A stretch of 64,000 bases of DNA from Octopus vulgaris (taxonomy: Eukaryota), in contig OX597833.1 in NCBI GenBank assembly GCA_951406725.2, positions 43,214,001 to 43,278,000 of the forward strand, given 5' to 3'. The translations under genes and the position numbers were made by a program. The notes below the pieces were generated by a model. It was not told where the DNA came from. It worked only from the letters and a program-made list of their open reading frames with translations, and searched no databases. This document shows, piece by piece, positions 3,941-57,420 of the stretch (position 1 is its first letter; every line of letters begins with the position of its first letter).

Positions 3941-4307
3941 AGAGTTTGAACATATCATATCAGTTTATTTACACTTTGTCAATTGTATAAGCCTACAATT
4001 GTTTCCATATCCAACTTCATTCAAGTTACAATGAAAATCAACATTGCATTATGAAATAACGAAAGTAGATATTTCTTCAGGGTAAAAATTGACACGAAAG
4101 TTTTTATATCCTAATAGATTGGATGTTAATGAGTACACAATCTATTTGGATGTAAACACTTTCGTGTCAATTTTCGCCCCAAAGAAATATCTTCCTTTGC
4201 TATTTCATAATGCAATTTTAATTTTAATTGCAAATTTTAATTGTAACTTGAATGAAGTTGGATATGGAAACAATTGTAAATAAACTGATATGATATGTTC
4301 AAACTCT
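3941..4307. repeat. Long imperfect palindrome (about 180 bp arms), hairpin element
   Basis: AGAGTTTGAACATATCATATCAGTTTATTTAC... pairs with ...GTAAATAAACTGATATGATATGTTCAAACTCT. Loop is about 4121-4138. Confidence 0.9.
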
Positions 4308-4384
4308 ATATCTTCTTCTCTATGATATATTAAAACATATATACCCAAATACATCGATGAGAAATACTCCTGAAATATATACGA

Positions 4385-4749
4385 CTAGCACTATGACCCG
4401 GCAACGCCGGGTCATAGTGCTAGTGCATGCATATATAGCTGCATGCGTGCACACATACACGCGAGTACTGTTCAAATCTCCGACCAATCACATACAGCTA
4501 GCTGGCATTCAATTGGCGTATCAAGTTTTAAGCCCTTTTGATTGGGTTTTGGATAGAAAATTCACAAAAAAGTTACTTCTATTAATTTTTTAATGGCTTT
4601 GCGGGGTGACTGGGGAAATGTAAAGATGTGCACGACCACCCTTGGGCGGTTTTGAATGATCATAGAAAAAGCGAGCCCTCTAACTGAAGAATTGTGGATT
4701 TGTATAAAGGACATACACACAGATATTTTGCCGTTTACATATAGAGAGA
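4385..4749 (-). mobile_element. Non-autonomous Helitron-like element with long terminal hairpin
   Basis: Minus strand starts A|TCTCTCTATATG and ends CTAG|T. There is a 19-bp perfect stem at 4384-4424. Confidence 0.7.
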
Positions 4750-4837
4750 TTATACTGGAGTACGCTTGGATATAAACATCCCTTCAAAGAGGAATCTTTC
4801 TCCTCACAAAAAATTATATATATATATGTGCATATAC

Positions 4838-4990
4838 TGCATGGTTGTGTCGTAAGAAATTAGCTTCCCAATCTCATGGTTTTAGGTTTCGTCCCACTTC
4901 GTGCTATCATGAGCAATTATCGTCTCCTATAGAACTGCGCCGATCAAGGGCTTCTGAGTGGATTTGCTTGGCAGAAATCTGTGTGTATAT
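4838..4990 (+). mobile_element. SINE family A head, degenerate
   Basis: GCATGGTTGTGTCGTAAGAAATTAGCTTCCC...GAGTGGATTTG resembles the family A 5' region. Confidence 0.6.
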
Positions 4991-6289
4991 GAGTTCGTGT
5001 GTATGTCTTATGTATGTATGTATGTATGTATGTATGTATGTATGTATGTATGTATGTATGTATGTATGTATGTTGCTAATTCTGTACAAAACATTGTAGA
5101 TCTTTAGTTGGGCTAAAAAGTCACATTCGATCACAGCATATATATACACACACACTCACACACACACACACACACACACACATATATATATATATATTTA
5201 TATATATATATATATGTATATATATATATGTATGTATGTATATGTGTGTATGTGTATGTGTGTTTGTGTGTCTGTGTTTGCATGTCCCCGTAACTTTGTG
5301 TGTATGTATGTATGTATGTATGTATGTATGTATGTATGTATGTATGTTGCCAATTCCGTACAAAATATTGTAGATCTTTATCTGGGCTAAAAAGTCACAT
5401 TCGAACAGTTAAGCTTCGTGCGATGGCCATACTCGATAACGAGGGGGCAGCCATCATGTATGTACGTATGTTCACGTGAGCACACAGGTGCAAAACAGGG
5501 TGAGCAAAATACAACGTAAAGTACTCTGTAATAGTTTGTGAAATAGTTTTTCATGCTACAATAAATCAGAAATCGTGTGTGTGCGTGCGTATGCGTACGT
5601 GCGCACGATTGTACATATGTATGCGCATTTATTCATACAATCTGCAACTATTTTTTTAAAGAAAAGCCTCCAAATTCGCACATGCTTTCATAACACTTCT
5701 GACTCCCACACCTCTCTCCTTTTCTGTTACCGAAACTCGTTTTTATACGATCTTACATGTCTTCTTCTGTCTTTACTCTCTCTTTCTCCCTCTTTCTCTC
5801 TCTCTCTCTCGCTTTCTTTCTTTGTTTTTCTCTACCTCCCCCCTTTTCAATATTCTCTTAGGCCTTCTTTGTCTCTTCCTTTCATTTTTCATTGCTCCCC
5901 CTCTTCTCCGACTCCTTATCATTTACGTTATAACTCATACTTTAACTCGTTCTAATTCTTTCTCTTTCACTCCTTGCCTTCTCTTTCAATACCATCGCTA
6001 ACATCAACGATAGCAGCAACAACACGAAGAGTACCGCTACCAATCTACCCCTCTACAACTAATTTATACTTGTAACTCATACCCAACTACAAAATTGTTA
6101 CCATTCCACAACAAACCTCACTAAACCATACTGTTGTTGTGCCGACAAAAACATGAAAGCAGGGGAAATAACTCTTGTGTTAGTTACCCGGCTATCTGTG
6201 TCGCTCTCCAACACAGAAAAGGTATAAAACGTGATGCGAACTGATTGGGAGCTAGAAGCATCACTAAGGCTTGGCTCGGTTTCATACAC

Positions 6290-6560
6290 TTGATGGGGCT
6301 GGGACCACTACAATTTAGTGGTTCCAGAGGTGTCATCATGCGTTGAGTCAACCAATGCTCTCCTTCGCTGGCGGTCCCGTGTCAGCCCTTATGCATATTC
6401 CAAGGTGACTGCGGACCTCTGAAGATATTCCTCAATCCCATCCAGCCATCTAGTGCGGGGCCTCTTGCAGCCAGCAACTGTTGCATCGAATAGGAGTAAA
6501 AGCCCTGGTAGGATGATCTAGCGGGGGACGTACCAGCGCATGCGACGGATAACAGATCTT
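6290..6560 (-). mobile_element. RTE-like LINE 3' end fragment
   Basis: Minus-strand translation RPRTRWLDGIEEYLQ...RDRQRRRALV resembles the RTE C-terminal GRP..RW.D...DR..WR motif. Confidence 0.6.
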
Positions 6561-6671
6561 GAAACAGGATTAAAGAGAAACAAAAATTGTGTTGCATCCT
6601 TTAAACCCATTGAAGGGTACAACAACTAAACAACTCTATAACACAAACACTACTCTACAAAGTAGGATACC

Positions 6672-54814: not shown

Positions 54815-55223
54815 TTTCTTTTATTCTTTTATTTGTCTCAGTCATTTGACTGTGGCCATGCTGGAGCACTGACTTGAAGGGTTTTAGTTGAACTAATCGA
54901 CCCTGGGACTTATTTTTTATAAACTAGATACTTATTCTATCCGGCTCTTTTGCCGAACCACAAAGTTATGGGAACGTAAACACACCAACACTAGGTGTCA
55001 AGCGGTGATACGCGGGGGGGAGGGGAGACACAAAAAACGGAGACAGACACAGGTATATATATATATATATATATGCGACGTCCTTCTTTCGGTTTCCGTC
55101 TACCAAATCAACTCACAATGCTTTGGCTGACCCGAGGATTTAGAAGAAGACACTCGCCCAAAGTGCCAAGCTATGGGGCTGAACCCGGAATCATGTGGTT
55201 GACAAACAACCTTCTTACCACAC
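54815..55223 (-). mobile_element. SINE family A, diverged
   Basis: Head and 3' segment are recognisable. Confidence 0.85.
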
Positions 55224-55789
55224 AATATATACACACATACACACAAACACACACACACACACACACACACACACACACACACACACACACACACACACAC
55301 ACACACACATATATATATATATATATATATATATATGTTAAATACATATACTAATGTATATGCTTTGTCTATTTTCCGGTGGCTGCAGCGGCGTAGCGGA
55401 GTATAAAACTCTCATGTCGCCGGTGTTAAAACACCTTAGAGCCACTGACAGGCGAAATAACTCACACTCAATCCCATTTGGGAGTGATGGACATCGATGT
55501 TTTGCCATTTATGTGGTTTATCAACACCACCTACCTGCCTGGGTTGAAGAGTCAGCTAGCCAGTCCAACAACTTATATGCTCATGGCTTGTAAAATCGTG
55601 AGCTGGTATGCCGGAAATTGCATACCTAAGAGAAAGTTTACATATGAAAAGCAGCTCTAGTATAATAAATATCGTTAAATACATATACTAATTGTGTATT
55701 TTCCATGGTTTCCATCCTGGAAGAAGCTGCCTAAGTCAGCTCATACAACATTATTACCGGGTGTTGAAACAGTCCCTCAACCACTCAAA

Positions 55790-56700
55790 TGTGGATGCGA
55801 TATATCTCACTTTGCAAAGGCTTTCGACAAAGTTGATCATGGAATGATATGTCACAGACTACGTAATCTCAGCATAGTCGGCAAATTGAGAGAATGGCTG
55901 CATGACTTTCTGAAAGATAGAAGTTAAGCATTAGTAGCCCATTGGGCCACCTGCAATGATACGTAAATTGTGAGCGGTGTTCCGCAAGGCACTGTATTGG
56001 GACCACTACTGTTTATAATGATCCTCTCAGGTATGCCCTTCGCCACACAGAGATCCACGATCAGAAGTTATACAGATGAAACAAAAGGTCTCACAGATGA
56101 TACAGAACCATGAAGGTGCTATGCACCTGAAACGTAAGTTAGATGAAACATACAAGTGGGCTAAGAAGAATAACATGCAGTTTAATGCTAAAAAATTTGA
56201 AGCCCTATGTTATCAGCATGCAAAACTAAATTCACTACCAATTAAATACGGTGGGCCTGGAGAGACAGCAATCCCAGAGACACAGTCAATGCGTGACCTG
56301 GGCATTTACATACGTAATGATGCAGCCTTCCATGTGCATGTTGCTAAGTTGGCAATGAAATGCGGACGGCTGACCGGATGGATTCTTAGAACTTTTAAAT
56401 CTAGAGATCATGAAACCATGATGGTCCTCTGAAGGACATTTGTCTTAAGCCGCTTTCACTATTACTTCCGGCTATGGTCACTAAACTAGTGTAAAATTAA
56501 TTGCAGAACTTGAGGCAATCCAACGAAGCTACACAAAGAAGATAGCCTCTATGCAGCATGTAAGCTACTGGGAAAGACTCAAGAGATTGAGACTCAATTC
56601 CCTGGAGCGTAGGCGGGAAAAATATGCCGTAATATACATGTGGAAGATCATGTAGGGATTCCAGCCAAACTTTGGCATTGAGAATTGCACTAACATTAGA
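55790..56700 (+). mobile_element. CR1/L2-like LINE RT fragment (pseudogenised)
   Basis: FAKAFDKVDHG, VSGVPQGTVLGPLLF, YTDET, W...N.MQFN.KK and RDLGI motifs, with stops. Confidence 0.85.
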
Positions 56701-56734
56701 ACATAGGTGTGTGTGTGTGTGTGTATGTGTGTGT

Positions 56735-56945
56735 ATTTATGTGTGTGTGTTTGTCCCCCACCATCATTTGACAACCGATGTTGGTGTGTTTGTGTCCTCG
56801 TAACTTAGCGGTTCGGCCTAAGAGACCGATAGAATAAGTACTAGGCTTACAAAGGATAAGTCCTGGGGTTGATTTGTTCGACTAAAGGTGGTGCTCTAGC
56901 ATGGCCACAGTCAAATGACTGAAACAGATAAAATAATAAAAGAAG
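56735..56945 (+). mobile_element. SINE family A, 3' half
   Basis: Matches the family A 3' segment. Confidence 0.88.
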
Positions 56946-57140
56946 ATATCTTAAATATAAATATATATATATATATATATATATATATATATATATATAT
57001 ATATACATACATAAATATATATAAATATATATACGTACATAAAACTATATCAGGTTTGGTAAAGAAAAGGTGATCACGTACCTTGTCGCTGTTGTGATTA
57101 CAGACAGACAGAGAAACAAAGAATTATATATACATATATA

Positions 57141-57420
57141 TATATATACCAATTAAGGACTGAACACGAAAAGTGGACAGTCAACATGCTAGATATAGAC
57201 GTCAAATCGCCATTCTCCACAAAAGATTATGTTCTCAGATCTGAGAACATAATCTTTTGTGGAGAATGGCGATTTGACGTCTATATCTAGCATGTTGACT
57301 GTCCACTTTTCGTGTTCAGTCCTTAATTGGTATATATAAATATTTTAATCTTCGGATTTTTTTAATATGCTAGACCACTGGTTCTAATTGATAAATATCA
57401 ATTTCTACCCTAAATTAATG
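57141..57420 (+). mobile_element. Perfect loopless palindrome plus tail between (TA)n tracts
   Basis: 57141-57338 is its own reverse complement, centred on AGA|TCT at 57239/57240. A unique tail runs to about 57420, then (TA)n. Confidence 0.9.

What the first reader, a model, noticed from the sequence alone, without database searches (positions are those of the whole stretch)
3941..57420. Recurring architecture: long palindrome + unique tail + (TA)n, in at least six sequence-unrelated versions
Seen: palindromes at 3941-4307, 24566-24736, 25150-25338, 30295-30686, 46304-46539, 47277-47814 and 57141-57338. In each the right arm runs on into a 35-120 bp unpaired tail, and most abut TA-rich microsatellites. 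Several tails end similarly (TTTTACCCTCAATT, TTTCTACCCTAAATT, TATACTCCCTA). The asymmetry argues against ordinary MITEs. Inference: these are heavily truncated Penelope-like insertions made by fold-back or template switching at (TA)n targets. All tails point the same way, which is unexpected for independent insertions.
Basis: partly seen in the sequence, partly recalled or inferred. Interest (0 to 1): 0.7.

Follow-up and report, generated by a model that had tools for sequence, protein, structure and literature searches.

The report
Head-to-head Penelope retrotransposon stumps
The palindromes are short copies of the end of Penelope-type jumping genes joined head to head, a pattern already described for these elements; each was likely written from both cut strands of the target DNA in one insertion, and their shared direction in this window is likely chance.

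Summary
The palindromes are real. All seven belong to repeat families with tens to thousands of copies, and each family has two fixed ends: one with the tail, one without. Four families trace to coding Penelope-like elements (PLEs), with RT/GIY-YIG fragments upstream on the tail strand: three Hydra-type, one Poseidon-type. Two are non-coding 506- and 545-563-bp hammerhead tandem units (retrozyme-like). One has a hammerhead but no ORF link. 'Inverted truncated copy + tail + (TA)n' is the published PLE signature. Corrections: three tails are related; only four of seven abut (TA)n; and a missed eighth palindrome (30066-30294) points the other way. Strand bias is weak: 8 of 9 in the window, 16 of 30 in 400 kb of flanks, 10 of 20 neighbour pairs elsewhere. 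Mechanism: 32 of 33 two-armed copies of one family carry exactly one tail, the tail-less arm is often longer, and both arms share a haplotype. This favours two primings on one RNA over simple fold-back. The scan reported this architecture before on other DNA of this genome.

The parts
3920..4380 (+). F04: old head-to-head insertion; arms 3920-4328, decayed tail from 4329; hammerhead-like motif with long stem II in the family consensus; family linked to a Hydra-type GIY-YIG
   Evidence: 56 candidates; decayed EN about 800 bp upstream in L158, L160, L172; left arm stops at consensus 444, right runs on
12037..12125 (+). One-armed tail-bearing 3' end of an F24-type element, followed by (AAT)n(TA)n
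24566..24812 (+). F24: short-armed (27 bp) head-to-head copy with about 70-nt tail; relatives carry a type I hammerhead further 5'; no ORF link found
   Evidence: (1146 exact matches of one subfamily's hammerhead pattern)
25150..25411 (+). F25: palindrome 25150-25338 with hammerhead variant (CCGAAGA core) plus about 73-nt tail, (TA)n on both sides; 3' end of a Hydra-type PLE
   Evidence: 1352 candidates; 12 of 30 longer copies have the EN upstream on the same strand
30024..30810 (+). F30: head-to-head copy with about 115-nt tail; left arm split by the nested insertion at 30066-30294; hammerhead remnant (no GAAA); family linked to a Hydra-type EN
   Evidence: 1548 candidates; 2 of 30 longer copies
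30066..30294 (-).
   Evidence: (296 candidates)
43267..43488 (-). One-armed, tail-less copy of the F47 family
46304..46633 (+). F46: palindrome 46304-46539 plus about 95-nt tail between (TA)n runs; 3' part of a non-coding 545-563-bp hammerhead tandem unit
   Evidence: (3869 pattern matches, 1961 forward and 1908 reverse)
47277..47856 (+). F47: palindrome with tRNA-like segment, (AAT)n and minimal hammerhead, about 40-nt tail, 11-bp TSD; terminal repeat of a Poseidon/Penelope-type PLE
   Evidence: (2168 candidates)
57148..57420 (+). F57: perfect palindrome (92 of 92 matches, centre AGATCT) plus about 80-nt tail between TA runs; 3' part of a non-coding 506-bp hammerhead tandem unit
   Evidence: (1365 candidates)

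Best explanation
Each palindrome is two 5'-truncated copies of the 3' end of a Penelope-like element (or of a non-coding hammerhead repeat unit) joined head to head, one copy with the tail and one without, likely written in a single insertion by a Penelope reverse transcriptase/GIY-YIG complex. Shown here: the repeat families, the two fixed ends, head-to-head order, target duplications around the whole unit in one family, ORF linkage for four families and hammerhead motifs on the tail strand. Inferred: the complex nicks both strands of an AT-rich or (TA)n target; each free 3' end primes reverse transcription on the element RNA, one at the tail-end start site and one at the start site 40-115 nt further in; both cDNAs stop early and are joined at a short self-complementary stretch. 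F46 and F57 are likely non-autonomous passengers (retrozyme-like) of this machinery. The common orientation in this window is likely chance.
For: One-tail rule: 32 of 33 two-armed F46 insertions from a position-ordered, score-independent list have one tail-bearing and one tail-less end, 17 left and 15 right; the exception is truncated. F57: 19 of 20 distinct two-armed loci (read by eye). One-armed F46 clusters end at either site: 10 with tail, 7 tail-less, 1 unclear of 18, so both are stand-alone ends. F47: 22 of 29 two-armed copies have an 11-nt or longer match between the flanks, against 6 of 812 mismatched pairs. In three public runs laid as contigs, loose ends pile up at the same two F47 ends, 47276 and 47853. 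ORF links: F25 12 of 30, F47 11 of 15 loci chosen by the junction pattern and 2 of 30 chosen by the tRNA-like head, F30 2 of 30, F04 3 of 30. The genome holds intact 781-aa RT+GIY-YIG ORFs. Both arms carry the same haplotype over 59 variable positions; median arm-to-arm difference 1.7% against 6.5% between insertions, n=32. Literature: inverted truncated copy, tail and (TA)n targets (PMC8557442; PMC3846280); a purified PLE cuts and extends both strands and starts RT at two sites that bound the tail, with a predicted dimer (PMC11167929).
Against: No autonomous partner was found for F46, F57 or F24; none of 30 GIY-YIG loci ended in a window family. Rfam did not call a hammerhead in F57 or F47; the motifs rest on pattern reading and folding, and cleavage is untested. 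13 of 32 F46 copies have near-equal arms and all have matched haplotypes, which fold-back also predicts. Tails of 70-115 nt are longer than the published 30-40 nt. The window's 8-of-9 orientation is nominally p=0.04 and no host gene was found to test it. Most family samples were the best-scoring 30 of hundreds to thousands of copies.
Confidence: 0.85

Rival explanations
1. Same elements, different junction mechanism: one cDNA starts at the tail, folds back and copies itself as far as the tail-less boundary; later deletions at the unstable centre make the arms unequal.
For: Arms share a haplotype; 13 of 32 F46 copies have arms within 50 nt of each other; junctions can sit on small palindromes such as AGATCT in F57. 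PMC3846280 reads such palindromes as self-priming.
Against: The tail-less arm is longer by more than 50 nt in 11 of 32, by five to six tandem units in L311 and L325; a fold-back copy cannot exceed its template without later deletion. Tail-less one-armed copies exist (7 of 18).
Confidence: 0.3
2. The shared orientation is real: the window lies in a transcribed host region and copies in one orientation were removed by selection, for example because a sense hammerhead or poly(A)-like tail harms the pre-mRNA.
For: 8 of 9 tail-bearing ends in the window are plus (p=0.039). In one search's list, with the 3931 hit set aside as F04's tail-less arm and before F30a was found, plus ends ran 10 in a row over about 80 kb (chance about 0.027 in 36).
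Against: F30a breaks the run. Flanks 16 plus, 14 minus; neighbours of F46 in 10-kb loci 10 same, 10 opposite; genome-wide pattern counts are balanced. The window was picked after the pattern was seen. No host exon among 109 unique reading frames.
Confidence: 0.15
3. They are MITEs or foldback DNA transposons.
For: Long terminal inverted repeats, high copy number and TA flanks.
Against: Ends are asymmetric, the fold point differs between copies, one-armed and tandem copies are common, TSDs vary in length, and four families continue into RT/GIY-YIG sequence.
Confidence: 0.02
4. The palindromes are assembly or library chimeras.
For: Long-read data can make perfect fold-backs (recalled, no call); F57 arms are 100% identical. 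No contig spanned a whole palindrome.
Against: Arms have diverged 2-26% in six of seven; family-specific ends recur on many chromosomes; TSDs frame whole units; one palindrome is nested in another with its own duplication.
Confidence: 0.02

Closest known systems
EN+ Penelope-like element insertions with inverted 5'-truncated pLTR and tail (Craig et al. 2021, PMC8557442; Adineta vaga Pen2a, PMC3846280)
   Same: Head-to-head inverted truncated copy, tail at one end only, (TA)n or AT-rich targets, variable TSD where visible, hammerheads in the terminal repeat.
   Different: Here both arms are usually very short, so no ORF remains; tails reach 70-115 nt in five families against 30-40 nt published.
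Hydra clade PLEs (PMC8557442, section 11)
   Same: F25, F04 and F30 ORF fragments show a C-terminal EN with a CxCx5C-type linker and CxxC and CxH motifs near the end; hammerheads; (TA)n targets.
   Different: Only decayed fragments were read; the RWK and DKT motifs and tree position were not tested; F04 and F30 window copies do not abut clean (TA)n.
Penelope/Poseidon clade (PAc of Anolis, PMC11167929)
   Same: F47: GIY-YIG without a zinc-finger linker, minimal hammerhead, about 40-nt tail, AT-rich non-microsatellite targets with TSD.
   Different: F47's terminal repeat holds a tRNA-like segment with A- and B-box-like motifs followed by (AAT)n; two searches listed no report of this.
Metazoan non-LTR retrozymes (PMC7229834; bioRxiv 10.64898/2026.07.22.740005)
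   Same: F46 and F57 are non-coding, low-GC tandem units with one type I hammerhead motif per unit, from monomers to arrays of 13.
   Different: Units are 506-563 bp against about 300 bp typical, and they insert with the full PLE signature (head-to-head, one tail, (TA)n); the passages I saw of those papers do not describe inverted arms or tails. Circular RNA was not tested.

Membership tests
EN+ Penelope-like elements | RT plus GIY-YIG ORF in the element | tested here: met
   F04, F25, F30, F47 have EN (F25 and F47 also RT parts) upstream on the tail strand. Links were found by tblastn and motif reading; Pfam gave only E=0.058 for the F25 EN and nothing for the F47 EN and F25 RT fragments.
EN+ Penelope-like elements | RT plus GIY-YIG ORF for F24, F46, F57 | tested here: not met
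   Longest ATG frame 44-45 aa in the F57 and F46 units; no long ORF in a 2.8-kb F24-type insertion. They are at most non-autonomous derivatives.
EN+ Penelope-like elements | 5' truncation with tandem and inverted (head-to-head) copies | tested here: met
EN+ Penelope-like elements | Tail at only one end of the unit | tested here: met
   32 of 33 (F46); 19 of 20 (F57)
EN+ Penelope-like elements | Hammerhead motif in the terminal repeat | tested here: met
   Core and stems read in F04, F24, F25, F46, F47, F57; remnant only in F30. Rfam models gave no hit for F57 and F47.
EN+ Penelope-like elements | RT groups with PLE/telomerase RTs in a tree | not tested
   No reference set was fetched; clade names rest on motifs.
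Hydra clade | CxCx5C linker, no internal CCHH, CxxC and CxH near the EN end | tested here: met
   F25 SCSCRSRKFCP..CGLC..CPH; F04 CDCKFKNHCP..CDLC; F30 decayed CNC.....YP..CKLC..CKH
Hydra clade | RWK and DKT motifs; single ORF under 3 kb | not tested
   No full-length copy was fetched.
Penelope/Poseidon clade | C-terminal EN with CCHH and no linker zinc finger | tested here: inconclusive
   L265 shows VYSIPCSC and a later HVWKNGDH with no upstream Cys linker, but one His position is decayed; no tree.
Non-LTR retrozymes | Non-coding tandem units, each with a type I hammerhead | tested here: met
   F57 506 bp, five-unit array; 38 motif matches. F46 545-563 bp, arrays to 13 units.
Non-LTR retrozymes | Self-cleavage and circular RNA | not testable with these tools
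   Needs RNA data or an assay.
MITE / foldback DNA transposon | Symmetric terminal inverted repeats and fixed TSD | tested here: not met
tRNA-derived SINE (considered for F47) | Element begins at the tRNA-like head and has no ORF | tested here: not met
   At least 138 genomic matches run upstream of the head; 11 of 15 fetched continue into a GIY-YIG ORF. ARAGORN calls no tRNA in 8 of 8 loci.

The most novel reading that the evidence does not exclude
F46 and F57 are large animal retrozymes whose RNA, perhaps a circle, is copied twice by one Penelope dimer from the two nicked strands of (TA)n, once from each of two start sites. Their thousands of young copies would be a genomic record of twin-primed Penelope integration and direct structural evidence that retrozymes use Penelope machinery, with the tail motif shared by F24, F46 and F57 as the recognition signal.
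Probability: 0.5. Interest if true: 0.55.

Novelty: new member of a known kind. Interest (0 to 1): 0.3.

Why it matters
The architecture itself is in print, so the finding mostly adds annotation: such palindromes should be filed as Penelope-like insertions, not as MITEs, hairpin RNA genes or assembly errors. The value lies in mechanism. How PLEs make their inverted structure and tail is named as open in PMC8557442 and PMC11167929. The strict one-tail rule, the independent arm lengths and the matched haplotypes in F46 give predictions that the existing in vitro PLE assay can test. The retrozyme-like units tie non-coding hammerhead repeats to PLE-type integration by structure, not only by phylogeny.

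Tried and rejected
Rfam scan of the whole window: the 150 rows shown of 369 were nearly all microsatellite-driven miRNA matches and none a hammerhead; narrow scans of F57 and F47 gave no hammerhead. DNA search with the F46 arm and tail found no candidates; a pattern search then found 3869 matches. GIY-YIG family search: the 30 loci fetched of 148 matches were mostly one Neptune-like family (name from motifs) ending in (TA)n; the F24 and F46 hits near them, and the ORF beside F25 in L098, were separate insertions. The idea that F47 is a stand-alone tRNA SINE was dropped. Two different RNA templates per insertion: not seen in F46; the apparent arm differences at positions 323-329 and 365 are gap-placement artefacts. 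Host gene: 109 unique frames gave one transposase hit and no host domain; part of the output was cut. No RNA holder listed for window 27000-30000. Contigs overlap the F47 junctions by only 25-29 letters, under the tool's 31-letter bar, so they are not counted as bridging. The first de novo tail caller was noisy with microsatellite mosaics; 24 of 36 clusters were kept by hand, and that library missed F30a, so other ends may be missed on both strands. Longer F24-type loci were not read beyond one 2.9-kb stretch. Papers PMC6962438 and PMC10886601 (passages) gave nothing relevant.
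Full report
Setting. The window is G000:C20:43214001-43278000 of a 2.8-Gb, 227-contig genome, rich in microsatellites. Earlier notes of this scan call the genome octopus; I did not test that. Pfam finds only transposon domains in the window's frames. Families are named here by window position: F04, F24, F25, F30, F46, F47, F57.

Observation. Six of the seven palindromes appear in a self-BLAST with E values of 1e-59 or lower; arm identity runs from 74% (F04) to 100% (F57). 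F24 has only a 27-bp arm pair, but its relatives form full palindromes. Each is a dispersed repeat: first-look candidates were 56 (F04), 1352 (F25), 1548 (F30), 2168 (F47) and 1365 (F57); F46 gave 3869 pattern matches and one F24-type subfamily 1146. In each family the tail is family sequence with a fixed end, and the other arm stops at a second fixed point. Among palindromes found de novo in the fetched loci, which overlap in part, the tail-less end touches TA in 76 of 76 F46-type, 54 of 56 F57, 24 of 28 F25, 7 of 10 F24, 4 of 7 F30 and 1 of 33 F47. The tails of F24, F46 and F57 share a motif (p=0.001 and 0.002; 19 of 21 pairs not significant), so these three are probably related.

What the families are. 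F25: 12 of 30 longer copies carry a GIY-YIG-type frame upstream on the tail strand, some with RT motifs (MGSYDGA, YKDD), and 3 more carry it inverted. F30: 2 of 30 carry a similar frame collinear with the family. F04: 3 of 30. Their cysteine motifs fit the Hydra clade as defined in PMC8557442, section 11. F47 contains a tRNA-like segment, (AAT)n and a minimal hammerhead. F57 and F46 are the ends of 506-bp and 545-563-bp tandem units with no frame over 45 codons from ATG and one type I hammerhead motif per unit; arrays reach 13 units. F24 relatives have a type I hammerhead motif but no ORF in a 2.8-kb two-armed copy. F30 keeps only the 5' half of the motif. [quoted passage not shown] Rfam did not call the two that I scanned narrowly; none is tested for cleavage. 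The genome also has intact 781-aa RT+GIY-YIG ORFs of another family.

How it forms. The F46 sample comes from the first 100 pattern matches on C1 in position order, so it is not ranked by score. Of 51 clusters, 33 are two-armed, all head to head, and 32 have exactly one tail. The tail-less arm is longer by over 50 nt in 11, the tail arm in 8, and they are near equal in 13 (counted). One-armed clusters end at the tail in 10, at the tail-less point in 7, and 1 is unclear. Both arms carry the same haplotype although the family has 59 variable positions. In F47, 22 of 29 two-armed copies are framed by a match of 11 nt or more, against 6 of 812 mismatched pairs, so each unit is one insertion. A purified PLE cuts and extends both target strands and starts at two RNA sites that bound the tail, and is predicted to be a dimer (PMC11167929). 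The simplest reading is two primings on one RNA, one per strand and per start site, joined at a short self-complementary stretch. This is inferred. Fold-back followed by centre deletions is not excluded; I put it at about 0.3 as the junction mechanism, within the 0.85 for PLE origin.

Orientation. A library of 24 hand-kept tail clusters was laid on the window and 400 kb of flanks. The flanks give 16 plus and 14 minus. The window gives 8 plus; the one minus hit in that table (3931) is F04's tail-less arm and was set aside. An eighth palindrome at 30066-30294, nested in F30's left arm with a 12-15-bp duplication, has its tail on the left. That makes 8 of 9 (p=0.039) or 7 of 8 palindromes (p=0.07). 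Neighbours of F46 insertions in 27 ten-kb loci agree in 10 of 20 cases. With the window chosen after the fact, chance is enough; a host-gene effect could not be tested because no exon was found.

Known or new. The inverted truncated copy, the one-sided tail and (TA)n targets are described in PMC8557442 (passages; section 11), PMC3846280 (passages) and PMC8969392 (passages). Hammerheads in PLE repeats, including opposite-strand pairs 100-700 bp apart, are in PMC4209133 (parts 1-2 of 4). Retrozymes and their proposed PLE origin are in PMC7229834 (passages) and bioRxiv 10.64898/2026.07.22.740005 (part 1 of 5 and passages). PMC11167929 was read in parts 1-2 of 4. PMC13282606 (part 1 of 3) lists 31 recently active PLE families in Octopus vulgaris, as context only. 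Searches listed no paper on twin-primed PLE insertion, on retrozymes with inverted arms and tails, or on a tRNA-like segment in a pLTR; the library is incomplete and no supplements were read. The scan has reported this architecture several times on other DNA of this genome and nothing near this window.

Verdict. Real, well explained, and a known kind. Interest 0.3, carried by the mechanistic statistics and the two large retrozyme-like units rather than by the strand bias.

Noticed in passing
L220:3883-4168 (G000:C20, about 194 kb beyond the window's end): Two full U6 snRNA copies in inverted order, separated and flanked by (TA)n, at the centre of a larger inverted duplication between two Neptune-like PLEs. 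Could be U6 moved by PLE machinery or a local fold-back.
   Followed up: partly
window:23363-24231 and 28503-29371: 869-bp inverted pair, 98% complementary, of decayed mariner-like transposase copies about 4.3 kb apart; F24 and F25 lie between them (family name from reading the translation).
   Followed up: partly
window:47541-47610: tRNA-like segment with A- and B-box-like motifs inside the F47 terminal repeat; many copies begin right at it, which suggests a Pol III start.
   Followed up: partly
L343:2744-5086 and many loci: Intact 781-aa RT+GIY-YIG ORFs, preceded in L343 by a 359-aa frame; the 3' end has a hammerhead-like motif with a U3-A8 type core and ends in (TA)n. Likely an active family.
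   Followed up: partly
window:30861-31829, 59829-60668, 8967-9260: Fragments of other transposons: an RT frame (RVT_1), a zf-RVT frame and a partial DDE transposase.
   Followed up: no
L116 (flank of an F25 copy): An F24-like 3' end is joined to a short frame resembling a PLE N-terminus (resemblance recalled); a possible lead to the coding parent of F24.
   Followed up: no
G000:C1:13258872-13267786, 92729679-92735176, 129720662-129727982: Pairs of F24-type hammerheads in head-to-head order 5-9 kb apart; candidates for long two-armed copies that may hold an ORF. Not read.
   Followed up: no
flanking loci: More than ten further families with palindrome, tail and TA-adjacent tail-less end occur in the fetched DNA, so the architecture is common in this genome.
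   Followed up: partly
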